From: an uncultured Gammaproteobacteria bacterium
GTDB lineage: Bacteria > Patescibacteriota > Microgenomatia > UBA8517
Reading direction: 5' to 3'
Length of the DNA: 64,000 bases
NCBI GenBank assembly: GCA_964488535.1
Contig: CAZAUT010000004.1
Span: 3,409-67,408 of the forward strand
Below are positions 16,462 through 58,715 of the stretch, one piece after another. Position numbers and translations under genes: made by a program. The notes below the pieces were generated by a model. The model saw only the letters and a list, made by a program, of their open reading frames with translations. It did no database searches and was not told the origin of the DNA. The first letter of the stretch is position 1, and every line of letters starts with the position of its first letter.

Positions 16462-16937
16462 ACAGATTCGTTGAGTAATCGTTTTATCTTTTCCATGTTT
16501 TCCTCAATCAATTCTCTTTGTTCCGGCCAGAACATGGAGGGTAATTTGTTAATATCAAACCATTCCAATTGTAAATTACCTTCATCCGGCTGGAGATTTT
16601 GTTTTCCTGAAACATCACCTGTAACAAATAAAAAATAATGCGCAATTTTCCAATCTGTCTTTTTAAAGGAAAATCTTTCCTTAACTCCAAGTTTGCAAAT
16701 CATCTTTATATTTTGAAGTCCCGTTTCTTCGCAAATTTCTCTAATTGCAGTATTCTTAATCGTCTCCCCCCGTTCACGCGTACCTTTTGGAAGCACGTAG
16801 TCCTTATATTTGTCCGTTTTAAGAAGGGCAATTTTTAACTTTGCCCGATCTTTTCTAATTACTATTCCACCCGCAGTGGTAGAAACTGGAAAGTTAGAAT
16901 CGTTAGGTTTTATATACCAGCTTTTATCAATTTTCAT
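16458..16937 (-). CDS. NUDIX hydrolase
   Basis: Nudix box PKGTRERGETIKNTAIREICEETG. Start placed at MKIDKSW (ATG at 16935-16937), which overlaps the stop of the upstream helicase. The longer annotated ORF N-terminus lies inside the helicase gene. Confidence 0.7.
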   Translation of the reverse strand: MKIDKSWYIKPNDSNFPVSTTAGGIVIRKDRAKLKIALLKTDKYKDYVLPKGTRERGETIKNTAIREICEETGLQNIKMICKLGVKERFSFKKTDWKIAHYFLFVTGDVSGKQNLQPDEGNLQLEWFDINKLPSMFWPEQRELIEENMEKIKRLLNESV

Positions 16938-19900
16938 CCGTGTTACAGAATAACTTATACTCACAATTTTTACAAAGCATGTTGCCGGAGCATTTGAAAT
17001 CGCTTCCCTCAATTTGCTTTTTATAATCCAATATTTCTGCTTTTGCTTTTTCGATTTGTTCATAGGTCCTTGTTGTTGTAACAATTTTTGGCGTGTCAAA
17101 GTAATATAACGAAAGTTTAATATGATCCGGTTTTTGGTTAAAAGGATATTCGGGAATCGTCGACGCTGCCATTGCATAAATACACAGCTGCAAATCGGTG
17201 TCTGCTTCTTTTTGTGAAATCGGATTCGCGCCGGTTTTATAATCAATAATATGAATTCCGTTTCCGTCTTTATCTACCCTATCGATTTTCCCACCTACTT
17301 TTAATCCGGATAAATTTACAATAAACGGCTGTTCTGTTTGAATCGGCAATATTTTGGGGTTAAAAAGATTTTCAAGATAGTGTTTCAGAAACTTTTTAAT
17401 TTTCTCATAAGATCGTGTTTCATGAGCTTTACTTGTATATCCGTCTGATATCCATTTTTCTTCCAAAATTTTGTGCATCAACTCAAGTGTCGGCTTTTCC
17501 CCCGCTTTTACATCATCGTAAAACTTCTTCATAACTTGATGAAATGTGTTTCCAAAGCTTTGTGATGAGGTTGGGGGGGTCGGAAGTTTATAAATATAAT
17601 GCAACTTATAATGAAGCGGGCATATTCGGAAGGTCTCAATTTGAGAATAAGAAAGAAAATCTACATGAATAGGTAGGTGGTGGTTGGTTGTTGGTAGTTG
17701 GGACGGCTCGGTAGGCTCGTAATCCATGAAGCTAAGTTGTTCGCTCCGTTCTACATTCTTCATACTACCTTCTACACTTGTTCCAAGCGCTTCCCCCACA
17801 AACGGCGAAAGTTTCTTCTCCCTTTTTCCTTCTCCGTAATAATCAGCTGCGGTTAAATAAAGCCGCTCTTTTGCCCGAGTCATTCCGACATAAAAAAGCC
17901 GTCTTTCCTCCTGAATGTGATAGTCACCTTTCGGCAAGACTTCCTTGATAAGTTCGTCAGGGATAGGGATCTGCTCTCTTCTTTCGGTTGTGGGAAATCT
18001 TTGTCCTACAAGATTGATGAGAAATACGACTGGAAATTCTAAACCCTTGGAAGAATGAACCGTCAATATGTTTACTGCATTGACATCTCCCCAATCAGTG
18101 TCAGATGCCAGGGGTGACTCACCAAGTTCACTTGCAAGGTCTATCCAGTCAACAACGGCACGAACAGTTGCGTCTTCGTGTTCAACCTCGTAAGTTTTCA
18201 GTTTGTCAAAAAACTTGGAAATGTTTTTTGCCCGTCTTTCCGCCAGCGGTGTATCGGGGGAAAGAAGTTTTAAAATAAGCCCCGTGTCGTTTAGAAAATT
18301 ATAAAGAAGCTGTCCCGCCGGTTCTTTGTTTATTAATTTTTGTTGATCGCTGATTACTTTTAATAACTTGTTTAATTTTTCTCTTGTTTCGTCCGAAACG
18401 AAAATGTCGTTATTCTTTTCCAATGCCTCGAAAAGTGATAGATTTTTATACTTTGCGTAATTTGTTATCTTGATTAAATCTCGGGCGGGAATATCAAAAT
18501 ATTCTATTGAAAGTAAACGATACATCGACACCGAATCGTCAAAGTCATACAGAACTTTAAGGAATGAAATGAGATCCACTATTTCAGGCTGTTTGAAAAG
18601 CCGTCCGGGACCCAAGAATTGGTAAGGAATTCCGTGTCTGGACATGGCGCGCATGAAGGGCTCGGCGTGGTTATTGGCACGAACCAATATCGCGATGTCG
18701 CGATAATTTAGTTGATTAGTCAATTGAGTTAATTGGTTGATTGAGTTTTTTTCTTGTTTTCCTTGGTCAACTCTGTCAACTGGACTAACTAGTTCACTTA
18801 CTGTTTTTGCCACTGCTTCCGCTTCGTTTTCAACCCGGTCAAGATGTAAAAATTTAACCCGTTCATCAACTACGTCCGAATATTTAACTTGTGAAACCAA
18901 TTTCTTATTGATCTTTTCAACCACTTCCAACCGGTCAGGATTATTGTACTGGATCAACTTATATGACTTATCCAATATTTCCTGATCCGAACGGTAGTTT
19001 TTGGTTAATGTAATAACTTTTGCTTTCGGATAGTATTTTCGAAAGTACAAAGCATTAGAAACTGCAGCCCCACGGAAGCGATAAATGCTTTGGTCATCAT
19101 CTAAAACGACAGTAATATTTCCCTCCGGGGTCGGAGACCCCTCTTTCCGAGTCAGAGACTTCTCCAAGTCGGCGACCAGGTCGGAGACCTCTTTTCCCGC
19201 CAGCAATTTCACTAATTCGTTTTGCGAAATGTTGGTGTCCTGAAACTCATCAACCAAAATATATTTGAATTTATTTTGATATTCTTTCAGCACATTCGGG
19301 CGCTTACGAAATAGTTCCAAAGTTTTTACAATCAGATCCCCAAAATCCATCACCCCTTCTTTGGTTTTCAATTCATCATATGTTTTATACGCTCCCGCCA
19401 ACTCCTTCCATTTTTGCAGTTCAATCTCTTCATCCTTCGCCTCGCCGAAGTCCCGCTCGGTGGGACGAAGGCGGGGTTTTTCTTTTTTAATTTTTGACTT
19501 TTCATTTTGATTTTTGCTTGCCCCTCGAAGCCCTGCTGAGCGGGGCGAAGTGGGGAGTTTTAAGTTTACCCAATCAAGGTATTGATTGGGTAAAATATCC
19601 TCATCCTGCAACCTTGAAAAATGAGTCAGCATCCCGTCAATAAATTTCGTAGGGTTTCCTAAAGGACGGAAATATTCAAGTTCAAATTTGAAAAGATTTT
19701 TTCTGAAAAACTGGATCGATTCGGCTTGGGTGTTTAACTTGTATTTCGGATTAAGTCCGATATGAACTGCTTCGTTTTTTAAAATTCTATCGCAAAAGGA
19801 GTGAAAGGTGGAAATCCACATTTGCGTGTACCCCAAAGGAAGTGCAACATCAATTCGCTCCTGCATTTCGGCAGCTGCTTTTTCGGTGAAAGTCAGAGCC

Positions 19901-20064
19901 AAAATTTCCGGCGGCTTGGCAAGTTTTTTTTCAATCAGAAATTTTACCCGCTCGGTAATGACCGTCGTCTTCCCCGTCCCGGCACCTGCAATAATCATTA
20001 AGGGACCATTTTTATATTCAACTGCTTTCTTTTGTTCCTCGTTTAACTTTCTATCACCCGACAT
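16927..20064 (-). CDS. UvrD-family SF1 helicase fused to a C-terminal PD-(D/E)XK (Cas4/AddB-like, Cys-cluster) nuclease; AddA/RecB-like
   Basis: 1045 aa. Helicase motifs AGAGTGKT, TFTEKAAAEM, VDEFQDTN, GDDDQSIYRFRGA, IAILVRAN, TVHSSKGLEF and GMTRAKERLYL. The C-terminus has IIDYKTG plus CSGNMLCKNCEYKLFC (nuclease with 4-Cys cluster). It contains several in-frame GC-rich repeat insertions. Confidence 0.75.
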   Translation of the reverse strand: MSGDRKLNEEQKKAVEYKNGPLMIIAGAGTGKTTVITERVKFLIEKKLAKPPEILALTFTEKAAAEMQERIDVALPLGYTQMWISTFHSFCDRILKNEAVHIGLNPKYKLNTQAESIQFFRKNLFKFELEYFRPLGNPTKFIDGMLTHFSRLQDEDILPNQYLDWVNLKLPTSPRSAGLRGASKNQNEKSKIKKEKPRLRPTERDFGEAKDEEIELQKWKELAGAYKTYDELKTKEGVMDFGDLIVKTLELFRKRPNVLKEYQNKFKYILVDEFQDTNISQNELVKLLAGKEVSDLVADLEKSLTRKEGSPTPEGNITVVLDDDQSIYRFRGAAVSNALYFRKYYPKAKVITLTKNYRSDQEILDKSYKLIQYNNPDRLEVVEKINKKLVSQVKYSDVVDERVKFLHLDRVENEAEAVAKTVSELVSPVDRVDQGKQEKNSINQLTQLTNQLNYRDIAILVRANNHAEPFMRAMSRHGIPYQFLGPGRLFKQPEIVDLISFLKVLYDFDDSVSMYRLLSIEYFDIPARDLIKITNYAKYKNLSLFEALEKNNDIFVSDETREKLNKLLKVISDQQKLINKEPAGQLLYNFLNDTGLILKLLSPDTPLAERRAKNISKFFDKLKTYEVEHEDATVRAVVDWIDLASELGESPLASDTDWGDVNAVNILTVHSSKGLEFPVVFLINLVGQRFPTTERREQIPIPDELIKEVLPKGDYHIQEERRLFYVGMTRAKERLYLTAADYYGEGKREKKLSPFVGEALGTSVEGSMKNVERSEQLSFMDYEPTEPSQLPTTNHHLPIHVDFLSYSQIETFRICPLHYKLHYIYKLPTPPTSSQSFGNTFHQVMKKFYDDVKAGEKPTLELMHKILEEKWISDGYTSKAHETRSYEKIKKFLKHYLENLFNPKILPIQTEQPFIVNLSGLKVGGKIDRVDKDGNGIHIIDYKTGANPISQKEADTDLQLCIYAMAASTIPEYPFNQKPDHIKLSLYYFDTPKIVTTTRTYEQIEKAKAEILDYKKQIEGSDFKCSGNMLCKNCEYKLFCNTDEN

Positions 20065-26084: not shown

Positions 26085-26435
26085 ATGAGGCGGCAAAAAA
26101 TCGCTAAGCGACAAAAAGAGGTAAAGTTGCGCAAAAATATCCTTCCGTCTGCAGTTATCACGATTCTTCTGTGGATAGCAGTTGCCACAATAGTATTTTT
26201 TGTTGACCCCAGCAAAACAGGTGCCGTTGTTGTTTTTATTACTACACTCTTTTTTACTCTATTTTTTACTCTATCAATATTATTTGTCAGTTCAAAAAGA
26301 GGGTTAATTGCAGCGTCGGGGTTAGGAATATTTATAATATTGCGATACTTTGGACTTGGAAATATTTTAAACTTTTTTCTTATTGCAGGGATTTGTATTG
26401 CCGTCGGGATATATACAGATAAGAAGAATGTATGA
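26085..26435 (+). CDS. hypothetical small membrane protein (3 transmembrane segments)
   Basis: ORF plus hydrophobicity only. Confidence 0.35.
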   Translation: MRRQKIAKRQKEVKLRKNILPSAVITILLWIAVATIVFFVDPSKTGAVVVFITTLFFTLFFTLSILFVSSKRGLIAASGLGIFIILRYFGLGNILNFFLIAGICIAVGIYTDKKNV

Positions 26436-26512
26436 AGTATGAAGTATGAAGTATGAAGTATGAAGTATAACGTATTAAGTATAACGTATTAAGTATAATG
26501 TATAAGATACGC
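26434..26512. repeat. tandem repeats (GTATGAA)x4 then (GTATAACGTATTAA)x2
   Basis: Direct reading of the sequence. It lies immediately upstream of the GT87-like gene. Confidence 0.8.
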
Positions 26513-35261: not shown

Positions 35262-35440
35262 ATTAACCTAAATGGTACTTAAATCCTAAATCCTAAACTC
35301 TAAATCCTAAACAATACTTAATTTCAAATGTTTAAAACATTGTAATTTTGGATTTTGAATTTAATTAGAATTTAGAAATTAGAAATTAGTAATTTTTCCT
35401 AATATCCCAGTATCGTAATATCCTAATATCTTTCTTTTCC
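35262..35440. repeat. AT-rich tandem repeat tract (AAATCCTAAATCCTAAACTCTAAATCCTAAAC ... GAAATTAGAAATTAGTAAT ... TAATATCC repeats)
   Basis: Direct reading. GAAATTAGAAATTAGTAA recurs as its reverse complement at 31036-31060. Confidence 0.7.
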
Positions 35441-35441
35441 C

Positions 35442-35897
35442 CTACATTCCCCCATCTCTTAATCCCGTACATCTCCAGTTAATTTCTGCCTCAAGGTTGT
35501 CAACAAAAACGACACAAGCCGGGTTACACCCTTCTTTCTCTTCAATCGGGATAAAATCGATCCACCAGGTTCCTGTAGAATTATTGCAAAAATGGTTTGC
35601 TTCCAGTTTTCCGTCCATACATTTTGATTCGGCAATTTTCACAGCATCTTCATATACCATTTTATTTCCGGTCGGTGAATAACAAATACTTGTGTCCGCA
35701 AGGTCCTTTTCCGTATCTTCAACCGGATTTGGGTTACATCCGGTAACCGGCATCGGAGAATATGGATTTCCGTGTTTTATCCATGAACCGTTTTCACATA
35801 TCCAACCATCCTCGTTCCCTCCAAAGAGAAGACGGACGGTAACCAAACCGGCAACAACAATAATGGAAATTATCAACAAAGCAAGTATCTTCTTCAT
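35442..35897 (-). CDS. secreted Cys-rich small protein (signal peptide MKKILALLIISIIVVAG)
   Basis: Start placed at the internal MKKIL. The longer ORF N-terminus overlaps a GC-rich hairpin repeat. 12 Cys residues. Confidence 0.35.
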   Translation of the reverse strand: MKKILALLIISIIVVAGLVTVRLLFGGNEDGWICENGSWIKHGNPYSPMPVTGCNPNPVEDTEKDLADTSICYSPTGNKMVYEDAVKIAESKCMDGKLEANHFCNNSTGTWWIDFIPIEEKEGCNPACVVFVDNLEAEINWRCTGLRDGGM

Positions 35898-36251
35898 AAT
35901 ACAAGTATAAATAATAAACAGAAAACAGTAAACCCTCCTTCGTCCCGCCGTGCAGGACTTCGGGCGGATAAGGCAATAAACAGTAAATAAGAAACCTGAA
36001 GACAATACCTTTCCACAGCCAAAGCCTAGTGCCATACCATTTCAAACGCTTCGCGTTCGGATTGTCTGGTTCGGTCCTGCCTGCAGACAGGTCATCCCCC
36101 GCCAAGCAGTGGTTTTCTTGATCTAACGATATGCAAGAAGCACAAAACAGAAACGGAATTTGCTGCACCGGTTTCGCACTTTGTCACCAAACTCGATCGG
36201 GAATGACAGGGTGGTATTTCTGCGCAAACACGAAGCTGGTAATATTTCTTT

Positions 36252-37196
36252 TCAAGAAAGAGATTGGTAATACTCAATTGTTTTTTGGAGGCCTTCGTCG
36301 AGGGATACTTTTGGTTCCCAATTAAGAACCTCTTTTGCCTTTGAGATGTCGGGGCGTCTTTTAGTCGGGTCGTCTTTTGGAAGGGGCTTATAAACTATTT
36401 TCGATTTACTGCCGGTCAATTTTCGAATTTTATTTGCGAGCTCCATTACGGTATATTCTCCCGGATTTCCTAAATTAAACACTTCCCCGTTTGTATTTTT
36501 CTCAAGCATTGCCTTATATATCCCTTCAATAAGGTCGGATACATAGCAAAAAGATCTTGTTTGCTCCCCTTTCCCATAAACCGTCAATGGTTCTCCTGAG
36601 AGAGCTTGATTGATAAAATTACTAACCACTCTCCCGTCATCTTTTTGCATACGGGGACCGTAGGTATTAAAAATTCTGATAACCCGCGCATCGAGGTTGT
36701 ATTTATGAATGAAAATATATACAAGAGTTTCGGCAAAACGTTTTGCTTCGTCGTAACAGGAACGTACACCGAAAGTGTTAACGTTTCCCCAATAACTTTC
36801 TTTTTGCGGATGCTCCAGCGGGTCGCCGTAAATTTCGGAAGTTGACGCCAATAAAAACTTGGCTTTATTTTTTACTGCCAGTTTCAATAAATTGTATGTT
36901 CCGACGGAATTTGTAAGGGCTGTTTCTTCGGGGTGGTTTTGATAGTCAACCGGGGAAGCGGGAGAAGCAAGGTGAAATAAAAAGGTAAAAGAGTGAAAGG
37001 GTAAAAGAGTAAAAGGACGGGAAACATCGGCTTTAATGTACTTGAAGTTTTTATTTTTTAACAGGTGTTCGATGTTTTTTTCAGAGCCGGTAAGAAAATT
37101 GTCGAGGCAGATTACGTGGTACCCCCTCTCGAGTAAATATTCGCAAAGATGGCTGCCTAAAAAACCCGCACCACCTGTAACTAACACCCTTTTCAT
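36252..37196 (-). CDS. UDP-glucuronate decarboxylase (UDP-xylose synthase)-like NAD-dependent epimerase/dehydratase
   Basis: GGAGFLGSH Rossmann motif, [19 protein letters not shown] (YxxxK). Strongest similarity pattern is to the UXS/ArnA-decarboxylase subfamily. There is an in-frame TCTTTTAC repeat insertion near HLASPASP. Confidence 0.75.
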
Positions 37197-37549
37197 ACCC
37201 TACCATTATATGACAAACATTTTTTACCGCCACAGGTAAAGGTGTTAATAAATTATCAAATTATCAAATAATTAAATAATTGAGGGGGTTGGGGGTTCCA
37301 CGCACCAGTAATTTTTTACTGCTTTCCATACTACATGATACATTCTACTTGCTGCCTGACGCTTGTTTACTGTTTACTACTTACTGTTTATACTTAAATT
37401 ATGATTAATACAGTATTTAATGAGTCCATATGGGGTCCCGCCACATTTTCGCACTCGGCTTTAACAATTCTGTTCGAATACGCCTCGTGCCAAAATTATT
37501 GGCGGGCGAACTGAACATCAGGTTTTTACTATACTAAATTCATACTGTT

Positions 37550-38923
37550 ATGGAGACTGTATTTACAGAGTCAATTTGGGGGGATGAAGGATTTTCGGCA
37601 ATTTTGTCAATGAAATCAATTCCGGAGATAATTAAAATTATCTCCCGCGACACCTCTCCCCCTTTATACAACATCACCGAACATTTGGCGTTCCAATATT
37701 TTGGAGTAAATGAAATAACCATACGCGGTTTGTCATTATTTTACTTTCTTCTGTGTCTTCTTTTTGTATATTTGATCACCTCCATGATCTGGAGTAGAAA
37801 AACAGGACTTTTTGCTGTGGTCGCAACAGCACTCAACCCCTTCTTTTTCATTTACGCTTTTGAGGGGCGGATGTATTCAATTTTAGCCCTCGGGGTAACG
37901 GCTTCAATGTATTTTTTCCTGCGGATCTTTTCATTTAAAGGCAAACAGATCGTAAATTATATCGGTTACGTTTTTTTTACGCTCTGGGCAATATATTCAC
38001 ACCATTTTGCTTTTTTTGCCCTTGCTGTTCAGGGGGTTTGGATCATAAAAGAATATTTTTCGGGAAAAAGAAAAACAGCTTTCGGGGTGGTTAAGTCGCT
38101 TGTTGTTGTTGCAGTTCTTTACGCTCCATGGCTCATACCACTGTATAACCAGATGACAATGGTCAAAGGCGGATTCTGGCTTGGTACGCCGACTTTAAAC
38201 GACCTCAAGGTCTTGATTTACGACTACCTCGGACAAGGAATAAAACTTATCAATTTCAATATTCCCGCGCTTAATATGAAAATTTATGAAATCGCCCCTT
38301 ATTTGGTATTTGCAACACTGCTTACCCGAAGGTGGTGGAAAAGTATTGAAAAAACGCTCTTTTTTCTGCTTTGGTTCTTTCTTCCGATCCTGATCACTTG
38401 GGGAATATCGCAAAAGTTTACATCGATATTTTTTAACCGTTATCTTTTATATTCCATACCGGCAGCAATGATAATTTTCGCATCATGCAGAAGCAAAATA
38501 TCTTTTGTTCCCCTTTTTGTGACATTGGCAGTATTTCTTATAATTGACGTCAATTATTTTCTCACTCCCAAAAAGCTTCCCTTCAGACAGATGTCAGAGT
38601 ATGTCAAGGAAACCCTCTCGCCCGGGGATTATCTTATAAATTGGAATTCTTCCGCCCACCATATTTGGGAGACAAAGTTTTACGGTATTCCCGCGCCTCT
38701 TTATATTCCCGGAGATGGGGAACTTCCCTATTATGTCGGAACGGCCTTAATGGAGGAGTCCGATATCATAAGAGAGATTCCGAAAGGAACAGTGAGGGTT
38801 GGAGTTGTCACAAGCGGATCCTTGGACGAAGTGCAACTTTCCGGATATTCTCTATCGGATAAAATGGAGATGGGGAATTTGAAAGTGGGATGGTTTACAA
38901 AGGCACTAGGCACTAGTTACTAG
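37550..38923 (+). CDS. GT-C membrane glycosyltransferase (GT39/PMT_2-like) paralog 4
   Basis: 457 aa and polytopic. N-terminal loop ...GDEGFSAILSMKS... with ArnT-like topology. Weak similarity. Confidence 0.45.
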   Translation: METVFTESIWGDEGFSAILSMKSIPEIIKIISRDTSPPLYNITEHLAFQYFGVNEITIRGLSLFYFLLCLLFVYLITSMIWSRKTGLFAVVATALNPFFFIYAFEGRMYSILALGVTASMYFFLRIFSFKGKQIVNYIGYVFFTLWAIYSHHFAFFALAVQGVWIIKEYFSGKRKTAFGVVKSLVVVAVLYAPWLIPLYNQMTMVKGGFWLGTPTLNDLKVLIYDYLGQGIKLINFNIPALNMKIYEIAPYLVFATLLTRRWWKSIEKTLFFLLWFFLPILITWGISQKFTSIFFNRYLLYSIPAAMIIFASCRSKISFVPLFVTLAVFLIIDVNYFLTPKKLPFRQMSEYVKETLSPGDYLINWNSSAHHIWETKFYGIPAPLYIPGDGELPYYVGTALMEESDIIREIPKGTVRVGVVTSGSLDEVQLSGYSLSDKMEMGNLKVGWFTKALGTSY

Positions 38924-38934
38924 GCACTAGAGAT

Positions 38935-39035
38935 AGAACATAACTCAAAACTTAAAACTCAAAAGTCAAAACTACAACTTAAAACTTAAAGGTTTTTATC
39001 TTTGAGCTTTCGTTTTGAACTTTGAACTTTGAGTT
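38935..39035. repeat. long imperfect hairpin built from AAACTCAAAAG-type units (terminator-like)
   Basis: Left arm AACTCAAAAGTCAAAACTACAACTTAAAACTT, right arm reverse-complementary. A 20-nt exact match (AAAACTCAAAAGTCAAAACT) occurs at 13812, inside a CDS. Confidence 0.6.
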
Positions 39036-40586
39036 TTGAACTGGAGAGTTTGCCGCCGAAAACAGATTCATTTTATTTATTATATGCACTATATCAAACA
39101 AATAAGCAATTTATTCCACATCCCCACCTGGTTATTTGTCGTTTTGGTAGGTGTAGTAATTTTCCGTATTCCTACCCTTTTTGAACCGTATTCGTATGGG
39201 GATGAAACAATTTATTTGACACTGGGACAAGGAATAAGGCGGGGGGTAATCTTGTACAAAGACCTGCACGACAACAAACCACCTCTTCTTTATCTTACTG
39301 CTGCCATTGCCGGAAATATTTTTTGGTTCAAAGTAGTACTTCTGACAACCTCACTTCTTACAGTCACATTGTTTTGGAAATTTACGGAAAAATTATATCC
39401 AAATATAAAACAATTTCCCATGATATCGACAGTTGTATTCGCGGTTTTAACTACCTTTTCCTTCATGGAAGGAGGCGTTGCAAATGCGGAAAATTTCATG
39501 ATTCTTCCGACTCTACTCGCCTTTTATATTTTACTTAACAGGGGCAATACTTACAAAAATATCTTTATTTCAGGGGTACTTTTGTCTATATCCACCCTTT
39601 ATAAAGTTCCTGCGATTTTTGATGTTCCTGCGATAATTTTTTATTGGCTTCTTTTTGTAAAATTCACAAAAAAAGATTTGTCTGCCTTGGCCAAAAAGAC
39701 GGGCGTATTGCTTTTGGGGATCGCCACCCCTATTGCCTTAACGTTTTTTTACTACACCCTAAAGGGGGCTTTCTATGAATATTTGGTCGCGGGATACTTA
39801 CAAAACTTCGGCTATCTGTCAAGTTGGAGACCGGACGACAAAACAGAGCCGTTTCTGGTTAAAAACGCCCCGCTTCTGATAAGGGCAGGAATAGTGTTTA
39901 TAATCAACGCCTGTCTTTTTACTCTTCGAAAAAAAGTTGATAAAAAATTTCTTTTTCTTGTTTCGTGGATCACATTTGCCGGATTTGCCATAACACTTTC
40001 CGAAAGGCCGTACCCTCACTACCTTTTGCAGGCAGCTTCACCAATATCTTCTGTTTTTGCACTTCTTTTTACGAGCGTTTCTATGGTCCAGGTTTATTCT
40101 GTTTTGGTCTTGACAATATTTTTCTTTATTCCGATGCATTACCGTTTTTGGCATTACAGAACAAGCTCATATTTGGGAAACTTCATCAGTTTTGCTGTTG
40201 GTAAAACAAATAAAAGTGAGTATTTTGATACTTTCGGCGGGAGAACAAGAGCCAATTACGAAATTGCGGGAATAATATCGCGAATGACAGATAAAAACGA
40301 TCGCATTTTTGTCTGGGAGGACTCGGCACAGGTGTATGCAATATCAGGCCGTCTCCCGGCAATTAAATACACATCGGGATACCATATCACCGATTTTTCA
40401 ACAATAGAAGCCGAAATTTCAAATTTGCAAAAGAACCCGCCGAAAGTTGTCGTAATTTTTCCCTCATCCAATCCCCCACCTGAATTAAACGCTTTTGTAA
40501 AAGGCAGTTACATTCTTTACAAAGAAACAGCGAACTACCAAATATTCAAATACGCTGGAGAATATTCAAGATTTATTATTGAATAA
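39036..40586 (+). CDS. GT-C membrane glycosyltransferase (ArnT/GT39/GT83-like) paralog 5
   Basis: 516 aa. Loop motif PTLFEPYSYGDETIYLTLGQ...DNKPPLLY (DE motif) after transmembrane segment 1. The real start is possibly the internal MHYIKQ. Confidence 0.5.
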   Translation: MNWRVCRRKQIHFIYYMHYIKQISNLFHIPTWLFVVLVGVVIFRIPTLFEPYSYGDETIYLTLGQGIRRGVILYKDLHDNKPPLLYLTAAIAGNIFWFKVVLLTTSLLTVTLFWKFTEKLYPNIKQFPMISTVVFAVLTTFSFMEGGVANAENFMILPTLLAFYILLNRGNTYKNIFISGVLLSISTLYKVPAIFDVPAIIFYWLLFVKFTKKDLSALAKKTGVLLLGIATPIALTFFYYTLKGAFYEYLVAGYLQNFGYLSSWRPDDKTEPFLVKNAPLLIRAGIVFIINACLFTLRKKVDKKFLFLVSWITFAGFAITLSERPYPHYLLQAASPISSVFALLFTSVSMVQVYSVLVLTIFFFIPMHYRFWHYRTSSYLGNFISFAVGKTNKSEYFDTFGGRTRANYEIAGIISRMTDKNDRIFVWEDSAQVYAISGRLPAIKYTSGYHITDFSTIEAEISNLQKNPPKVVVIFPSSNPPPELNAFVKGSYILYKETANYQIFKYAGEYSRFIIE

Positions 40587-45024: not shown

Positions 45025-45309
45025 CAAGATATTAAGATACTAAGATATTGAGATATTAAGATATCGGGCGAAAGCGAAAAGGTAAGAGTTGTATGTAGAA
45101 AAGGTAGAAATGGTAAAAAAGTATCCAGAACTGGAAAGTGGTTAATGGGCAAAAGAAAGTAGTTAAAGAAATTAGAAAATTGAAAACAAATTTCTAATTT
45201 CCTTTTTCAATTACTGTTTTCAAATTTCCAACAACATTTTTCGTTGAAAAACTCCACCCATGCGGTGGGGTTTTTCATTTGGTTAAAGATAATGTAAAAT
45301 ATACTCCGT

Positions 45310-53622: not shown

Positions 53623-54705
53623 TTGCGTTATAATATCCTCATGCGTACAGTAAAAATAAAAGATGTTGTCGTCGACGACGTTGTTGATGTACTAAAAAAA
53701 GGCGGGTTGATAATTTATCCGACGGAAACATTGTACGGCGCCGGTGTTGACGCAACAAATCCTGATTCTGTTAGAAAACTCAATTCATTCAAAAAAAGAC
53801 CCGCCGGCAAACCCTATTCCGTTGCCGTATCGGACATTAAAATGGCAGGGGAATATGTGGAAATCAACCGCACGGCAAGAAACATATATAAGTCGTTTCT
53901 TCCAGGACCTGTAACGGTAATATCAAAAGGAAAGGGTGCCGTGGCCAAGGGCGTTGAATCCGAAACAGGAACGTTAGGCATCAGAATACCTGACCATAAA
54001 TTAATCACTTCTATTATCAAAAAATTCGGCAGGCCGATTACGGCAACATCGGCAAACGCAAGTTATAAAAAACGTCCGTATAAAATATCAGACATTTTGG
54101 AAAATATCACAATACGGCAAATAAATTTGATAGATCTTGTAATCGATGCGGGAGAGCTTGCTCTTAATGATCCATCAACGGTAATCGATACAACCGGCGA
54201 CGATCTTACAACCCTTCGGCAGGGGAAAATATTTTTTTCAAAAGGCAATCAAATAATGTCCCGGTCTGATAATGACACAAAAAATTTTGCAAAAGAACTT
54301 TGGCAAAAATACCAGAAGTTCCAAAACACAAGGGCAATCATTTTTGCACTGACGGGAGAAATGGGTGCCGGAAAAACAATCTTTACAAAAGGTTTGGCAA
54401 AAGCCATGGACATTAATGAAATTATTACATCACCGACTTTTAATCTGCAAAACGCTTACCGGTCAAGTGTAACGGGCAACAGGTTGTTGCACATCGACAC
54501 TTGGCGAATTTCGGAACCGTCAGAAATTAATGATTTGGATTTTGTCAAAAGTATTTCCGACAGGTCGGTTGTTGCAATCGAATGGGCCGACAAAATTGTT
54601 GACGAAATTAAAAGACATAAAGAAGACGCTGTAATTATTTGGGTGAAAATTGAGTTTTGTAAAAAAGAGAATGAAAGAAAGATTGGATGGAAGGTAGCCA
54701 ATTAG
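53623..54705 (+). CDS. TsaC/Sua5/YrdC - TsaE fusion protein (t6A tRNA modification)
   Basis: N-terminal YrdC fold (IIYPTETLYGAGVDATN...KPYSVAVSD). C-terminal TsaE/YjeE P-loop ALTGEMGAGKTIFTKG plus SPTFNL and HIDTWR. Confidence 0.7.
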   Translation: MRYNILMRTVKIKDVVVDDVVDVLKKGGLIIYPTETLYGAGVDATNPDSVRKLNSFKKRPAGKPYSVAVSDIKMAGEYVEINRTARNIYKSFLPGPVTVISKGKGAVAKGVESETGTLGIRIPDHKLITSIIKKFGRPITATSANASYKKRPYKISDILENITIRQINLIDLVIDAGELALNDPSTVIDTTGDDLTTLRQGKIFFSKGNQIMSRSDNDTKNFAKELWQKYQKFQNTRAIIFALTGEMGAGKTIFTKGLAKAMDINEIITSPTFNLQNAYRSSVTGNRLLHIDTWRISEPSEINDLDFVKSISDRSVVAIEWADKIVDEIKRHKEDAVIIWVKIEFCKKENERKIGWKVAN

Positions 54706-54738
54706 ACCAATTGGTTCAATTTGACCAATTAGACAAAT

Positions 54739-55944
54739 ATGACAAACACAAACCCCGTTATTTTATCAATCGACACATCTTGTGATGAAACTTCTGCAGC
54801 CGTTACGGACGGATTGACCGTTTTATCAAATGTTGTCTGGTCGCAATCAAAAATTCACGCAAAATTTGGCGGGGTCGTCCCTTCGGAAACAAGACGTCAA
54901 CATGAAAGAAAAATTTTTTGGGTCGTCGATAAAGCCGTAAATACGGCGAATATTACGTATCATAAAATTGATGCCTTTTCCGTCACCGTCGGGCCGGGAC
55001 TCGCAATTGCGTTAGGTGTCGGAATAAATTATGCAAAAAAGTTGGCTGAAAAATATTCCAAACCATTAATCGCAGTAAATCACCTTGAGGGACATCTTTT
55101 TTCAGCATTAGCTGAAAAAAGAAAACATGAAACAGAAAACAATAAACCCTCCTTCATCCCGCTAAGCGGGACATCGGGTGGGCAAAGCAATAAGCGAGGG
55201 GTGGAAAATATTCAAGACATAATTAGCAATTTTTCCGACATACTACATACTACACACTATACACTACCCGGGTTTCCTTCCTTCGGTATAGTTGTTTCAG
55301 GCGGAAACACACTTCTTGTTTTGATCAAAAAAATCGGAAAATACGAAGTGCTTGCGCAAACGTTGGATGACGCTTTGGGAGAATCGCTTGACAAATCGGC
55401 CCGGCTTTTAGGGCTGGGTTACCCCGGAGGTGCTGTTTTGGAAAAATTTGCACTGCTTGGAGACCCCCACGTGTTCAAACTTCCAATACCTATGTTGGGG
55501 CGTGAACACGAAGGTTATTACAGTTACTCGGGAATCAAAACCGCATTTTCCCGACTTTACAATTCTCTTTTGCTAAGTAACAAAGTAACCAAAAATACAA
55601 TCTACAATCTGGCCGCCTCCTACCAAAATGTTGCCTTTACACATTTTTTCAGAGTTTCTGAAAAAACAATTTCTGCCGCTATCCCGATATACAATATACA
55701 AAATACAAAATACTTATTTGTGGGTGGTGGCGTTGCGGCAAACGTTGAATTTCGAAAAAGGGTTCGGGTCATGTGCAAAAAACTTGGTCTTACTCCCCTA
55801 TTTCCTTACTCCAAAAAACTGTACGGGGACAACGCGGCGATGATTGGCGTGGTTGCGTATTTTAAATATTTAAAGAAGGAGTTTATAAAACCAGATAAAA
55901 TTGACCGCTTGCCTAATTTTAAGATTGGGGAAGGATTGTGTTAA
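54739..55944 (+). CDS. tsaD: tRNA N6-adenosine threonylcarbamoyltransferase TsaD (Kae1/Gcp)
   Basis: ILSIDTSCDETSAAV, HLEGHL, VVSGGNT and GVAANV motifs. It has an insertion of about 45 aa between HLEGHL and the VSGG motif, which coincides with a GC-rich hairpin repeat and a TACTACA microsatellite. Confidence 0.8.
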   Translation: MTNTNPVILSIDTSCDETSAAVTDGLTVLSNVVWSQSKIHAKFGGVVPSETRRQHERKIFWVVDKAVNTANITYHKIDAFSVTVGPGLAIALGVGINYAKKLAEKYSKPLIAVNHLEGHLFSALAEKRKHETENNKPSFIPLSGTSGGQSNKRGVENIQDIISNFSDILHTTHYTLPGFPSFGIVVSGGNTLLVLIKKIGKYEVLAQTLDDALGESLDKSARLLGLGYPGGAVLEKFALLGDPHVFKLPIPMLGREHEGYYSYSGIKTAFSRLYNSLLLSNKVTKNTIYNLAASYQNVAFTHFFRVSEKTISAAIPIYNIQNTKYLFVGGGVAANVEFRKRVRVMCKKLGLTPLFPYSKKLYGDNAAMIGVVAYFKYLKKEFIKPDKIDRLPNFKIGEGLC

Positions 55945-56306
55945 TAAATTAATTTCAGTGAACTTCTCAACATCCTCTGACATCTTGTAGGGTTTACTTT
56001 TCTTTCTTCCACCATCCTCCAAAATTCACTAAGGTCTGTAATTCCTTCGTACGTAAGAGTTGTGTCAATGTTAATTTCACCTGGGACAGTAAAGGCTTCT
56101 CTGTATCCCGATTTGGCCCTTTTAAGTTTAATGTGTATATTTTTTTCTTTTAAGCTTCTGTCGCGAGAAACCAATATTGCTGCCGCAAGCGTACTGGAAT
56201 GAAATTCTCCTTCAATCTTATTTTCTTTCATAATTTTCCCTATAATACTCTCTCTCTGCAAAATGCAAATTGAGGTGGTAAAATACGAAAATTGACAGTG
56301 TATCAA
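55941..56306 (-). CDS. hypothetical protein
   Basis: ORF only. Its 3' end overlaps the tsaD stop. Confidence 0.25.
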   Translation of the reverse strand: MIHCQFSYFTTSICILQRESIIGKIMKENKIEGEFHSSTLAAAILVSRDRSLKEKNIHIKLKRAKSGYREAFTVPGEINIDTTLTYEGITDLSEFWRMVEERKVNPTRCQRMLRSSLKLIY

Positions 56307-56341
56307 GTATCATGTATCAAGTATCATGAAATTATTACGTT

Positions 56342-58660
56342 ATGGATAAAACATACAACCCCAAAGAACATGAAAAAAAGATTTATGAGATGTGGGAAAC
56401 GTCAAACGTCTTTAGTCCAAAAATTCCTTTGGAGAAAAAGGCCCTCCGGGTCGGAGACCCTCCGGGTCGGAGACCGTTCACAATAATTCTCCCCCTTCCC
56501 AACGCAAACGACCCAATGCATATGGGGCATGCTCTTTTTACAATCCAGGACATAATGATCCGCTACCACAGGATGCTTGGCGACCCAACGCTTTGGCTAC
56601 CCGGTGGAGACCACGCGGGAATTGAAACACAGTTTGTTTTTGAAAAACATTTGAAAGAAGAAGGAAAATCGCGATTTGATTTTGACCGCGAAACGCTTTA
56701 TAAAAAAATAAAAGAATATTCCGACAAGAACAAAGACCTTAATAAAAACCAGATGAAACTCCTTGGTTTTTCCATGGATTGGAGCCGGTATCATTATTCC
56801 CTTGAGCCGGAAATTGTCGAAAAAGTTCTTGCTACGTTTCGAAAACTTCATGACGACGGACTTGTATACAGGGGTGAACGGATTGTTAATTACTGCACTT
56901 TCTGCGGAACCGCTTTTTCGGAGCTTGAAGTTGAATATAAAGAAAAAGACGACTTTTTATACTTCCTTGATTATAAAAGTATAAAAATAGCAACAACCCG
57001 AACCGAAACAATATTTGCCGATGTCGCCGTTGCCTTCAACCCCAAAGACAAAAGATATCAAGGGTTGATAGGTAAAACCGCCACGATTCCCTTGATAGAT
57101 ATTAAGATCCCAATAATCTCCGATGATAATATCGATATCAAATTCGGAACCGGAGCTCTTAAGGTAACTCCCGCCCACGATCCGTTGGATTTTGAGATCG
57201 GAGTCAAAAACAGCCTTAAAACAATAAGTATCATCCAAACCAACGGACAATTGTCCGATAACCCACGGGTCCCCCAGGAATTGCGCGGTCTTTATGTTAA
57301 CCAAGCAAGAGAGAAAACACTGGAACTTCTAACCAAAGCGGGAGCTCTAATCAAAAAGGAACCCCTAAAACACTCCGTCGGGACTTGTTATAAATGCGGT
57401 CGGACAATAGAACCTCTGGTAATACCGCAATGGTTTGTTAAAACAAAACCGCTTGCAAAACCCGCAATAGATGCCATCAAAAAAGGCAAAACGAAAATAT
57501 TTCCGAAGAAACGATTTGAAAAACTGTATTTCGACTGGATGGAAAATATCCGCGACTGGAATATCAGCCGGCAAATTGTGTGGGGTCCCAGAATTCCCGT
57601 TTGGTATTGTTTGGAGTGTAATCCCGATATTCAAATTAATTTTATTGATAAAAACAAATCTGTAGTTTTCGGATCTTATAAAGATCTGGTAAATAATTAC
57701 AGTTTTGAAATTATAGCCAACGGATTACAGACAATAAGCGCGCCAAAAGATGCCAACTATCATTTGAGTGATAATAATTGTCCCAGGTGTGGCTCCGCCC
57801 ACGTCTTACAGGAAACGGACACGTTTGACACCTGGTTTCTTAGCGGACAGTGGCCCCTCACCACGCTCGGGATAAACGTCAACAGCCCTGAGAATAGCTC
57901 GCCTGATTTTAAGTATTTTTACCCAACTTCTGTTCTTGATACCTTGTGGGATATCTTGTTTTTCTGGGTTGGCAGAATGATGATGCTTGGAATTTATCTG
58001 ACAGGGAAAGCGCCGTTTGATGTTGTACACATTCATTCAAGGGTTGTTGATAAATTCGGAAAGAAGATGAGCAAAAGCAAAGGAAATGTTGTTGACCCGA
58101 TAACCGTTGTTAACCAGCATGGCGCCGACGCTCTTCGCTGGGCTTTGGTTGTTGGGATAGCACCTGCATCCGACATTGCGATAAGCGATGAAAAAATAAT
58201 CGGGGCAAGAAATTTCGCAAACAAGCTTTGGAACATGTCGCGATTTATCAATATGAAACTACAAGATTCGGGGATTAAATCCTACGACAATCTCCCCTCT
58301 TACGAAGACAATAATAAGGATTTAAATAGCGACGATAAAAAAATTATCAAAAAATTAAAAGCAATTATAAAAACGGTTACGGAAAATATTGAAGGGTATA
58401 AATTCGGTTTGGCCGCTGAAAAACTTTACGGGTTTGTGTGGCACGACTTTGCTGATTCTTACATTGAATCGACAAAAGAGCGTCTTGCAAGTTGTGACAA
58501 AACTCCTTTAATTGTTTTACGGCACGTCTTATACAACAGCCTTAAACTTCTTCATCCCTTCATGCCCTTTGTAACGGAGGCAATTTGGCAGGAGATGAAC
58601 GATCAGAGGAAACATTCTGACAAGATGTTGATAGAATCGAAATGGCCGGAAATAAAATAG
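56342..58660 (+). CDS. valS: valine--tRNA ligase (compact form)
   Basis: HMGHA (HIGH), TLWLPGGDHAGIETQ, TTRTETIFADVAVAFNPKDKRY, KMSKSKGN. There is a GC-rich 16-nt tandem duplication at 56443-56476. Confidence 0.8.
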   Translation: MDKTYNPKEHEKKIYEMWETSNVFSPKIPLEKKALRVGDPPGRRPFTIILPLPNANDPMHMGHALFTIQDIMIRYHRMLGDPTLWLPGGDHAGIETQFVFEKHLKEEGKSRFDFDRETLYKKIKEYSDKNKDLNKNQMKLLGFSMDWSRYHYSLEPEIVEKVLATFRKLHDDGLVYRGERIVNYCTFCGTAFSELEVEYKEKDDFLYFLDYKSIKIATTRTETIFADVAVAFNPKDKRYQGLIGKTATIPLIDIKIPIISDDNIDIKFGTGALKVTPAHDPLDFEIGVKNSLKTISIIQTNGQLSDNPRVPQELRGLYVNQAREKTLELLTKAGALIKKEPLKHSVGTCYKCGRTIEPLVIPQWFVKTKPLAKPAIDAIKKGKTKIFPKKRFEKLYFDWMENIRDWNISRQIVWGPRIPVWYCLECNPDIQINFIDKNKSVVFGSYKDLVNNYSFEIIANGLQTISAPKDANYHLSDNNCPRCGSAHVLQETDTFDTWFLSGQWPLTTLGINVNSPENSSPDFKYFYPTSVLDTLWDILFFWVGRMMMLGIYLTGKAPFDVVHIHSRVVDKFGKKMSKSKGNVVDPITVVNQHGADALRWALVVGIAPASDIAISDEKIIGARNFANKLWNMSRFINMKLQDSGIKSYDNLPSYEDNNKDLNSDDKKIIKKLKAIIKTVTENIEGYKFGLAAEKLYGFVWHDFADSYIESTKERLASCDKTPLIVLRHVLYNSLKLLHPFMPFVTEAIWQEMNDQRKHSDKMLIESKWPEIK

Positions 58661-58715
58661 ATATTAGGATATTAAGATACAAGGATATTAGGATATAAAG
58701 ACATTGGGAGAAAAA

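What the first reader, a model, noticed from the sequence alone, without database searches (positions are those of the whole stretch)
55150..55267. Insertion of about 45 aa in the essential tsaD gene that coincides with a GC-rich hairpin repeat plus a TACTACA microsatellite
Canonical TsaD has about 12 residues between the HLEGHL metal-binding motif and the FPF..LVSGGHT motif. Here the gap is about 55 residues (…FSALAEKRKHETENNKPSFIPLSGTSGGQSNKRGVENIQDIISNFSDILHTTHYTLPG…). The DNA for this segment contains the GC hairpin CCTTCATCCCGCTAAGCGGGACATCGGGTGGG (family shared with 35937 and 19446). It also contains CATACTACATACTACACACTATACACTAC, a microsatellite also found at 2771, 3314, 29263 and 37321.
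Basis: partly seen in the sequence, partly recalled or inferred. Interest (0 to 1): 0.65.

Follow-up and report, generated by a model that had tools for sequence, protein, structure and literature searches.

The report
Repeat-built loop inserted in tsaD
An otherwise intact tRNA-modification gene (tsaD) of a small-genome candidate-phylum bacterium carries about 48 extra, probably floppy, amino acids. They are encoded by the same GC-rich hairpin repeat and 7-base stutter repeats that fill this genome's spacers, a bacterial "selfish DNA inside a gene" case of a kind already known from Rickettsia.

Summary
tsaD (54739..55944, +) has a 150-nt in-frame insert (55123..55272, aa 129-178) exactly at the crossover between its two subdomains. 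The segment from HxEGH to SGGNT is 67 aa, against a mode of 24 in 117 relatives.

The insert is modular:
- a heptamer array;
- a two-tier GC hairpin (55147-55182) inside a 71-nt copy, 80% identical, of intergenic DNA at 35909-35979;
- a spacer;
- a TACTACA-type heptamer array.

AlphaFold2 keeps a confident TsaD fold (TM 0.90-0.92 to solved TsaDs), and the catalytic H-H-D residues are present. Insert residues 133-164 have pLDDT below 50.

Orthologs carry different repeats at the same loop: another hairpin type, or only heptamers. The site is therefore a permissive hot spot.

The hairpin core (GTCCCGC-N3-GCGGGAC flanked by GAA/GAA) is REP-like and widespread in metagenomes. It sits in frame in Dus, Rho, MiaB-like, AlaRS, glycosyltransferase and UvrD-like genes, nearly always in one orientation.

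Best reading: a tolerated, translated insertion of dispersed palindromic and microsatellite DNA. This is functionally analogous to Rickettsia RPEs, intragenic REPs and yeast mitochondrial GC clusters. I rate it a new member of a known kind, of moderate interest.

The parts
54739..55944 (+). tsaD coding sequence (401 aa), intact, with H115/H119/D364 metal ligands
   Evidence: AF2 model mean pLDDT 89.6; Foldseek TM 0.90-0.92 (target-normalised) to solved TsaD structures
55123..55272 (+). In-frame insert (aa 129-178) at the crossover from the N- to the C-terminal ASKHA subdomain
   Evidence: Gap in the PDB alignments. Loop length 67 against mode 24 in relatives. Open only in the tsaD frame. Residues 133-164 have pLDDT below 50.
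55114..55141 (+). Degenerate heptamer array (GAAAACA, about 4 copies) forming the 5' edge of the insert
   Evidence: TRF; part of repeat D9
55123..55193 (+). 71-nt dispersed-repeat copy (heptamer flank + hairpin + GCAATAA flank), 80% identical to intergenic 35909-35979
   Evidence: the repeat finder D9; alignment; blastn E=1e-8 for the 33-nt core
55147..55182 (-). Two-tier GC hairpin. Read on the - strand: CCCACC-GAU-GUCCCGC-UUA-GCGGGAU-GAA-GGAGGG, followed by a T-rich tail. REP-like. Antisense to tsaD in this orientation.
   Evidence: Folds of -20.2 (- strand) and -18.5 (+ strand) kcal/mol; canonical-architecture scan; family members elsewhere
55194..55234 (+). Spacer with no significant repeat match in the window (encodes ..KRGVENIQDIISNFS..)
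   Evidence: No significant intra-window match. Weakly predicted helix at residues 159-171, block-mean pLDDT about 50-70.
55235..55267 (+). Heptamer array (TACTACA/ACACACT type, about 4.3 copies) forming the 3' edge of the insert
   Evidence: the repeat finder D4 and I16; TRF; related TACCAAC/CCAACC arrays at the same place in orthologs
55689..55713 (+). Second, smaller heptamer array (ATACAAA x3.6) inside tsaD. It encodes IPIYNIQNTKY, 4 aa longer than A. aeolicus TsaD, and is shared with the closest orthologs.
35909..35979 (-). Intergenic paralogue of the 71-nt repeat (hairpin 35933-35968), just upstream of the - strand gene that starts at 35897
   Evidence: The longer ORF extension that would span it is implausible.
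19440..19555 (+). Two further hairpins of the same architecture (19440-19476 and 19521-19555), separated by a TTTTTGA heptamer array. They lie in frame inside the - strand UvrD/PcrA-nuclease gene and antisense to it.
   Evidence: The region is extra relative to PcrA.

Best explanation
The 150-nt segment is a translated, in-frame insertion of this genome's own dispersed non-coding repeat DNA. It consists of a REP-like two-tier GC hairpin with its flanks, bracketed by degenerate 7-nt tandem arrays. It sits at the structurally permissive crossover between the two subdomains of TsaD.

Shown:
- The insert boundaries coincide with the repeat boundaries.
- A 71-nt paralogue lies in an intergenic region.
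- The frame is open and the catalytic residues are kept.
- The rest of the protein models as a normal TsaD, with the insert as a low-confidence loop.
- Orthologs carry other repeats at the same loop.
- The same hairpin is in frame in other housekeeping genes elsewhere.

Inferred:
- The hairpin unit arrived by copying from another locus. The route could be transposition of a REP-like element or template switching or recombination at the hairpin.
- The heptamer arrays grew by replication slippage.
- Selection kept only variants that are a multiple of three, stop-free, in the tolerated orientation and in a loop that does not disturb catalysis or complex formation.
- The peptide itself has no specific function. 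It is a passenger, and possibly raw material for later evolution.
For: - Insert limits from the PDB alignments match the start of repeat D9 (55123) and the end of the heptamer array (55267).
- The D9 paralogue is 80% identical over 71 nt, with blastn E=1e-8 for its core.
- Period-7/8 arrays are a real genomic feature: 33 arrays of at least 25 nt, against 0.15 in Markov simulations. They are roughly 8-fold denser in intergenic DNA but also occur inside ORFs.
- AF2: mean pLDDT 89.6, residues 133-164 below 50, flanks above 90. TM 0.90-0.92 to solved TsaDs.
- H115, H119 and D364 are invariant in the alignments. They align to the A. aeolicus motifs HLEGH and DNA, whose His111/His115/Asp296 bind the metal (PMC11648230).
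- Ortholog DNA: L001 has AAATCAA heptamers, a different GC hairpin and TACCAAC heptamers. L002 and L003 have AATTTCC x4.5 and no hairpin.
- Loop length ranges from 18 to 72 aa in 117 relatives.
- The same hairpin is in frame in Dus, GT4/GT1, Rho, MiaB-like and AlaRS genes, in L012 Dus and an L020 ORF I read as PolA-like, and in the window's UvrD-like gene.
- Intragenic REPs and RPEs are documented elsewhere (PMC3733652; PMC10969869).
Against: - No mobility machinery was found. There are no TIRs or target-site duplications at the insert edges, and no RAYT gene was examined.
- Only two copies of the full 71-nt unit are visible, and only 64 kb of the genome is available.
- No close relative is available (nearest TsaD 66-69% identical), so there is no empty-site allele and the insertion cannot be dated.
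- Neutrality is inferred from disorder prediction and lack of conservation. It was not measured.
- All four window hairpins carry one G.U pair and a T-rich tail in the orientation antisense to their host genes. This hints at some strand-specific constraint that a purely neutral model does not predict.
Confidence: 0.7

Rival explanations
1. RNA- or DNA-level function. On the antisense strand the hairpin with its T-rich tail acts as a terminator, insulator or RNA-processing site. It would stop or trim antisense transcripts coming from the convergent - strand ORF (55941..56306), which overlaps the tsaD stop codon. The coding loop would then be the price paid for that function.
For: - In all four window copies the hairpin folds better on the strand that carries the T-rich tail: -20.2 vs -18.5, -17.8 vs -14.6, -28.3 vs -20.3 and -23.2 vs -15.4 kcal/mol.
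- Each copy has exactly one G.U pair on that strand, which is an A.C mismatch on the other.
- All three intragenic window copies are antisense to their host gene.
- The convergent ORF has no predicted terminator of its own between 54600 and 56400.
Against: - The hairpin lies about 770 nt beyond the end of the convergent ORF.
- The simple terminator scan does not call it.
- In the wider family there are no T-runs, and intergenic copies lie downstream of genes mostly in the opposite (CCTTCG) orientation: 26 against 11.
- Orthologous tsaD genes lack a hairpin of this type at the site.
- The convergent ORF has no family hit, so it is unconfirmed as a gene.
Confidence: 0.12
2. Protein-level adaptation. 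The enlarged loop is a lineage-specific functional module of TsaD, for example a docking site for the fused TsaC-TsaE protein encoded just upstream, or for tRNA.
For: - The loop immediately follows the HxxxH metal-binding motif and lies between the subdomains that form the active site.
- Enlarged loops recur in several relatives.
- The tsaC-tsaE fusion is conserved next to tsaD.
Against: - The inserts of different orthologs share no conserved sequence and are low-complexity, repeat-encoded peptides.
- Most relatives have a short loop (mode 24).
- The insert is predicted to be disordered.
- The same hairpin-encoded peptide (PSFVPxxGTSAGK) appears in unrelated enzymes.
Confidence: 0.1
3. Assembly artefact. 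The segment would be a chimeric join through dispersed repeats, or a mis-assembled intergenic fragment.
For: The sequence comes from a single metagenome assembly, with one member and one contig in the protein cluster. The insert consists of repeated DNA, on which assemblers are error-prone.
Against: - Both halves of tsaD are in the same frame on either side of a stop-free 150 nt, with synteny continuing on both sides.
- The repeat copy is only 80% identical to its paralogue, so it is not a collapsed identical repeat.
- Independent assemblies of four orthologs from ENA, Logan and JGI show repeat-built inserts at the same loop.
Confidence: 0.04
4. An intervening sequence that is not part of the mature protein: an intron-like RNA, an intein, or a translationally bypassed segment like the GC-rich 'byps' of yeast mitochondria.
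For: A GC-rich hairpin element inside an AT-rich coding region resembles bypassed elements. This is a recollection only.
Against: - The segment is a multiple of three with no stop in frame, so removal is not needed.
- No Rfam intron or other RNA family matches, even at E<=10.
- 48 aa is too short for an intein, and no intein motifs are present.
- Orthologs with entirely different inserts are also in frame.
Confidence: 0.02

Closest known systems
Intragenic REP elements ('REP-decorated proteins'; GTAG-/CGTC-tagged palindromic repeats; Di Nocera et al. 2013, PMC3733652)
   Same: - A short GC-rich imperfect palindrome (7-bp stem, 3-nt loop) with a conserved unpaired tetranucleotide next to the stem. 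This is G(T/A)AG here: of 119 metagenome members, 38 have GTAG and 41 have GAAG.
- G.T pairs in the stems.
- Dispersed copies, both extragenic and in frame inside known genes.
- The paper lists UvrD/Rep helicase and DNA polymerase I among the host genes, and these types recur here.
   Different: - The window copies carry GAAG or GATG, not GTAG.
- There is a second, co-varying outer stem separated from the inner stem by a symmetric GAA/GAA internal loop.
- 3 of the 4 window copies are intragenic.
- The host lineage is a candidate-phylum (Patescibacteria-like) genome, which my two literature searches found no paper linking to REP elements.
- No RAYT association is known.
- Here the element is combined with 7-nt tandem arrays.
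Rickettsia palindromic elements (RPE; Ogata et al. 2000 and 2002, as summarised in PMC10969869)
   Same: Palindromic repeats of about 100-150 bp inserted in frame into unrelated housekeeping genes of a reduced genome. They add a peptide judged compatible with the fold and function of the host protein. The insert here is 150 nt.
   Different: - Sequence relationship to the RPE families was not tested.
- The insert here is a composite (hairpin plus microsatellites), not one long palindrome.
- The encoded peptide is conserved only over the 13 or so residues specified by the hairpin.
GC clusters of yeast mitochondrial DNA (in var1/rps3 and rRNA genes; PMC4464245)
   Same: An AT-rich genome whose spacers hold short repeats and mobile GC-rich palindromic clusters. 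The clusters also sit in frame in a protein gene and inside rRNA genes, changing product size. Here one family member lies inside a 23S rRNA gene (L043).
   Different: Organellar against bacterial genome, with unrelated sequences. The var1 variation is a documented within-species polymorphism, whereas no population data exist here.
MITEs (Correia, ERIC, BOX, RUP, SPRITE and others)
   Same: Small non-autonomous repeats that can form in-frame fusions with host ORFs and can act as terminators or RNA elements.
   Different: No terminal inverted repeats or target-site duplications are visible at the edges of the 71-nt unit or of the whole insert.

Membership tests
TsaD/Kae1/Qri7 (PF00814), the host gene | Sequence membership and two-subdomain ASKHA fold | tested here: met
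   PF00814 precomputed. phmmer E=5.7e-56 to 8iey TsaD. AF2 model TM 0.90-0.92 (target-normalised) and rmsd 2.3-2.9 A to solved TsaDs.
TsaD/Kae1/Qri7 (PF00814), the host gene | H-H-D metal-binding motif (His111/His115/Asp296 in A. aeolicus) | tested here: met
   H115, H119 and D364 are invariant in 30- and 120-sequence alignments and align to the HLEGH and DNA motifs of 8iey. Residue roles are taken from PMC11648230.
REP elements (GTAG-tagged) | Short (20-40 bp) GC-rich imperfect palindrome with a 6-13 bp stem and a 2-3 nt loop | tested here: met
   7-bp inner stem and 3-nt loop in all 4 window copies. Criteria from PMC3733652.
REP elements (GTAG-tagged) | Conserved terminal GTAG tetranucleotide (degenerate forms such as GYAG and GTRG are allowed) | tested here: inconclusive
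   Window copies read GAAG (three) and GATG (tsaD). Of 119 metagenome members, 38 have GTAG and 41 have GAAG. GAAG is not among the degenerate forms listed in the paper.
REP elements (GTAG-tagged) | High copy number, dispersed, predominantly extragenic and downstream of genes | tested here: inconclusive
   4 copies in 64 kb, 3 of them intragenic; the rest of the genome is not available. In the wider set most copies are intergenic and downstream of genes.
REP elements (GTAG-tagged) | Association with a RAYT (IS200/IS605-like Y1) transposase gene flanked by the repeats | not tested
   The window's ORFs were not all scanned, and only 64 kb of the genome is held. The genome is not among the GTDB representatives that were scanned.
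Rickettsia palindromic elements (RPE) | In-frame insertion into unrelated housekeeping ORFs, adding a peptide compatible with the fold | tested here: met
   tsaD; UvrD-like gene; Dus, Rho, MiaB-like, AlaRS and GT4 genes elsewhere
Rickettsia palindromic elements (RPE) | Sequence homology to one of the described RPE families | not tested
I claim only that the insert works like an RPE, not that it is one.
MITE | Terminal inverted repeats and target-site duplication | tested here: not met
   No TIR or TSD is visible at the edges of the 71-nt unit or of the 150-nt insert when aligned with the paralogue.
Intron, intein or translational bypass element | The segment is removed from the RNA or protein, or skipped: an interrupted frame or stop codons, splicing motifs, or a structured intron RNA | tested here: not met
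   Open frame and a multiple of three. No Rfam match at gathering score or at E<=10. 48 aa without intein motifs.
Intrinsic terminator | GC-rich stem directly followed by a U-run | tested here: inconclusive
   The consensus scan finds none between 54600 and 56400. On the - strand the two-tier hairpin is followed by TTTATTGTTTTCTGTTT. The wider family lacks T-runs.

The most novel reading that the evidence does not exclude
One REP-like two-tier hairpin family is defined by an outer stem, GAA, GTCCCGC-N3-GCGGGAC, GAA and the returning outer stem. In candidate-phylum (Patescibacteria) genomes it colonises not only spacers but also, in a single orientation and with a preferred reading frame (PSFVPxxGTSAGK), the permissive loops of many housekeeping genes and even rRNA genes. 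Hosts seen so far are TsaD, Dus, Rho, MiaB, AlaRS, UvrD and PolA. Together with the 7-8-nt tandem arrays, this family would be a general and so far undescribed source of the lineage-specific protein and rRNA insertions typical of these organisms. The strict orientation would reflect either an RNA-level activity or a strand-specific insertion mechanism.
Probability: 0.25. Interest if true: 0.6.

Novelty: new member of a known kind. Interest (0 to 1): 0.4.

Why it matters
- It gives a concrete, sequence-level origin for one of the unexplained insertions seen in conserved proteins of candidate-phylum bacteria. The extra loop is recognisably built from the genome's own spacer repeats.
- It shows that the phenomenon described for Rickettsia RPEs, intragenic REPs and mitochondrial GC clusters also operates in this lineage, and in a near-universal tRNA-modification enzyme.
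- For annotation and alignment work, such loops should be masked as repeat-derived rather than read as functional domains.
- The heptamer arrays are potential frameshift-prone sites inside an important gene.
- The broad distribution of the hairpin core and its orientation bias are worth a dedicated census.

Tried and rejected
- **Rfam.** The whole window at gathering score gave only tRNA-Cys. The insert region at E<=10 and the region 35880-36300 at E<=1 gave nothing meaningful.
- **Terminator and promoter scan of 54600-56400.** No terminator was called.
- **Genome-contig scan for AAACCCTCCTTCNTCCCGC.** The window's own genome is not in that collection. Most of the 26 hits look like chance matches in GC-rich genomes, and only L012 and L020 are family members.
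- **Ungapped pairing count for the outer stem.** The excess was only weak (5.13 against 4.76 pairs of 10) because bulges shift the register. I replaced it with a comparison of native and chimeric flanks, which gave -23.84 against -21.71 kcal/mol.
- **Hairpin as a generic intrinsic terminator.** I tested this on the metagenome set and it was not supported. There are no T-runs, and intergenic copies mostly follow genes in the CCTTCG orientation.
- **Replication-strand explanation for orientation.** GC skew is mostly negative, with no clear switch, across the window, yet the copies are split 2 (+) and 2 (-).
- **The long ORF 35442..36035.** It would make the fourth copy intragenic, but its N-terminal extension is implausible.
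- **valS type-B repeat as an insertion.** This could not be settled, because the segment partly aligns to T. thermophilus ValRS.
- **Peptide census with the search for homologous proteins.** I did not repeat it with an artificial query.
- **Literature search.** No paper linked REP-type repeats with Patescibacteria or the Candidate Phyla Radiation.
Full report
**1. What is at the site**

The ORF 54739..55944 (+, 401 aa) is TsaD. Pfam PF00814 is precomputed for it, and phmmer against solved structures gives E=5.7e-56 to A. aeolicus TsaD. It follows a tsaC(Sua5/YrdC)-tsaE fusion gene (53623..54705). The same gene order is seen in two relatives.

The PDB alignments break cleanly. Query residues 9-128 align to chain residues 4-124 of 8iey, and 179-397 to 127-328. 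Residues 129-178, nt 55123..55272, are therefore extra.

The stretch between HLEGHL and FPSF is 58 residues. In 117 relatives the HxEGH-to-SGGNT segment has mode 24, median 27 and range 18-72. The window's is 67, the second longest.

**2. What the insert is made of**

The insert is modular.

- **Left edge.** A degenerate GAAAACA heptamer array lies at 55114-55141.
- **Copied unit.** From 55123, the first insert codon, to 55193 runs a 71-nt segment that is 80% identical to intergenic DNA at 35909-35979 (alignment). Its 33-nt core gives blastn E=1e-8 within the window.
- **Hairpin.** Inside that segment is a GC hairpin at 55147-55182.
- **Spacer.** A 41-nt spacer follows, with no significant repeat match in the window.
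- **Right edge.** A TACTACA/ACACACT heptamer array at 55235-55267 is related to arrays at 2770, 3312 and 29278 (inverted), and more weakly to 37324.

The insert has no stop codon in the tsaD frame and 2-4 stops in each of the other five frames. 4.8% of composition-matched shuffles are open.

A second, smaller heptamer array (ATACAAA, 55689-55713) encodes IPIYNIQNTKY further down the gene. It is shared with the closest orthologs.

Arrays of period 7-8 are a strong genomic feature. The window has 52 TRF rows, 33 of them at least 25 nt long, against 4.2 rows and 0.15 long arrays in first-order Markov simulations. They are about 8-fold denser in the 14% of the window that is intergenic, but they also occur inside ORFs.

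**3. The hairpin family**

A scan for the architecture GAA/GWW, 7-bp stem, 3-nt loop, 7-bp stem, GAA finds exactly four copies in the window:

| Position (strand) | Location |
|---|---|
| 55175 (-) | inside tsaD |
| 35961 (-) | intergenic |
| 19447 (+) | in frame inside the - strand UvrD/PcrA-nuclease gene |
| 19527 (+) | in frame inside the same gene |

All four copies fold as an outer stem, a symmetric 3x3 GAA/GAA (GAU/GAA in tsaD) internal loop, the inner stem GUCCCGC/GCGGGAC and a triloop. Each folds better on the strand that carries a T-rich tail. Each has one G.U pair on that strand.

The family is not in Rfam.

A scan of representative genomes found members in a Patescibacteria contig and a Gottesmanbacteria contig (L012, L020). 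By my reading of the flanking translations, these sit inside Dus-like and PolA-like ORFs.

Most hits continue with TTC/TAC-GG, which the pattern did not require.

Native flanks stabilise the fold by about 2 kcal/mol relative to chimeric flanks (-23.84 against -21.71; sd of means 0.17). The outer stems therefore co-vary.

With its G(T/A)AG tetranucleotide next to a short GC stem, and with G.T pairs in the stem, the element resembles GTAG-tagged REP elements (PMC3733652). The window copies, however, read GAAG or GATG, and no RAYT link was examined.

**4. The same thing in other genes**

In low-GC metagenome loci, 7 of 8 long ORFs that span the hairpin have the CCTTCG strand as their sense strand. 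Pfam identifies the hosts as Dus, a GT4/GT1 glycosyltransferase, Rho, a MiaB-like radical-SAM enzyme and AlaRS.

The favoured reading frame gives PSFVPxxGT(S/T)AGK. The tsaD copy reads PSFIPLSGTSGGQ. A second frame gives LRPAxRD.

In the window's UvrD-like protein, the two hairpins lie in a region that has about 54 residues more than PcrA. A further 22-residue insert just before motif II carries a different GC repeat, CCCTCCGGGGTCGGAGAC.

Di Nocera et al. reported intragenic REPs preferentially in replication and repair genes, including UvrD/Rep helicase and DNA polymerase I.

**5. Orthologs**

The closest TsaDs are 62-69% identical, and their loop lengths vary widely. Their DNA shows the following at this loop:

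- **L001:** AAATCAA x3, then a different GC repeat (CCCTCCGGGTCAGAGACCCTCATGGGTCGGAGAC, the type also found in the window's valS and UvrD-like genes), then TACCAAC-type heptamers.
- **L002 and L003:** AATTTCC x4.5 and CCAACC-type repeats, with no hairpin.

All are in frame. The loop is therefore a recurrent landing and expansion site. The C-terminal microsatellite part (..SDILHTTHYTLPG against ..SYQPPTSNNQPLT and ..SQPPATNYQLPT) is probably older and shared, while the N-terminal parts were acquired independently. These independent assemblies argue against an artefact.

**6. Effect on the protein**

AlphaFold2 with a 120-sequence alignment gives mean pLDDT 89.6 and pTM 0.86. Residues 133-164 are below 50, a weak helix is predicted at 159-171, and the flanking blocks are above 90.

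Foldseek matches solved TsaD/YgjD structures with target-normalised TM 0.90-0.92 and rmsd 2.3-2.9 A.

The metal ligands H115, H119 and D364 are invariant. They align to the motifs that hold His111, His115 and Asp296 in A. aeolicus.

The insert follows the HxxxH helix and precedes the first strand of the C-terminal subdomain. It is thus a loop-out at the subdomain crossover. According to PMC11648230, the TsaB interface uses helices alpha2 and alpha3 of TsaD.

**7. Mechanism and rivals**

My preferred explanation (0.7) is a translated, tolerated passenger. A REP-like hairpin unit was copied into the loop together with its flanks. Heptamer arrays then expanded by slippage. Selection retained only in-frame, stop-free, orientation-compatible versions.

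Four rivals remain:

- **Antisense RNA-level role, terminator or insulator (0.12).** It is suggested by the T-tails and G.U pairs, and by the convergent ORF that overlaps the tsaD stop codon. It is weakened by the 770-nt distance, the negative terminator scan and the family-wide orientation data.
- **Functional protein loop (0.1).** It is weakened by the lack of conservation and by the predicted disorder.
- **Assembly artefact (0.04).**
- **Removed or bypassed intervening sequence (0.02).**

**8. Novelty**

In-frame palindromic repeats in housekeeping genes are known from three systems:

- Rickettsia RPEs;
- intragenic REPs;
- yeast mitochondrial GC clusters in var1 and rRNA genes.

This is a new member of that kind, in a lineage and a gene where my searches found no report. 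It has a composite hairpin-plus-heptamer build and a hot-spot loop.

The wider pattern is the part that could repay a dedicated study. It consists of one hairpin core across many phyla, a strict sense-strand orientation in ORFs, a preferred reading frame, and a copy inside a 23S rRNA gene.

Noticed in passing
whole window, e.g. 26430-26505, 35280-35430, 38942-39042, 45026-45064, 58660-58696: Many of the intergenic regions contain degenerate tandem arrays of period 7 or 8, each with its own unit. The window has 52 TRF rows against 4.2 in Markov simulations, sharply peaked at periods 7 and 8. What generates them and what they do are unknown.
   Followed up: partly
window 16927-20064 (-), especially 19120-19190 and 19440-19555; also 17672-17776 and 18708-18747: The UvrD/PcrA-helicase + PD-(D/E)XK nuclease fusion gene carries several repeat-built in-frame inserts. 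Two are type-A hairpins read in two different frames (PTSPRSAGLRGAS and PRLRPTERDFGEAK). One is a 22-aa insert just before helicase motif II that carries a type-B GC repeat. There are also heptamer/octamer-encoded stretches such as NSINQLTQLTNQLN.
   Followed up: partly
window 56442-56475 (valS N-terminus); 19120-19151; L001 about 1140-1175: A second GC repeat family (CCCTCCGGGTCGGAGA, tandem x2 in valS, encoding LRVGDPPGRRP) also occurs in the UvrD-like gene and in the tsaD loop of a relative from another metagenome. Whether the valS copy is an insertion could not be settled.
   Followed up: partly
L043 1872-1893 (Ga0315280_10003929, GC 0.37): The same hairpin core lies inside a 23S rRNA gene, in a stretch that does not align to the Rfam LSU model (near model positions 2420-2520). 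This is a REP-like hairpin within an rRNA insertion or intervening sequence. In L125 a copy sits in the tRNA-23S spacer.
   Followed up: partly
window 53623-54705 (+): A fusion of TsaC (Sua5/YciO/YrdC domain) and TsaE in one ORF lies directly upstream of tsaD. The same fusion and gene order occur in relatives L002 and L003.
   Followed up: no
L053, L072, L118, L137, L043 (metagenome loci): A sub-family has a second upstream hairpin (GAAGAGAACTTCGTTCTCTTC-type) followed by ACCTTCGTCCCGC-N3-GCGGGACTCGGT. In some of these loci (e.g. L053, L072) it sits immediately before a start codon (..GGTCTATGAAAAAA..), which suggests a two-hairpin module in 5' leaders.
   Followed up: no
window 35894-35933 and 37365-37404: A 40-nt inverted pair (83% complementary) joins the heptamer-rich leader of the - strand gene starting at 35897 with an intergenic stretch upstream of the + strand gene at 37550. 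Both end in ..ATTATGA. This may be a shared promoter or leader module.
   Followed up: no
window 36000-36250: About 250 nt of relatively GC-rich sequence lies between the intergenic hairpin and the gene 36252..37196 (-). It has no convincing ORF and no Rfam match at E<=1. It may be an unannotated RNA or a degraded gene.
   Followed up: partly
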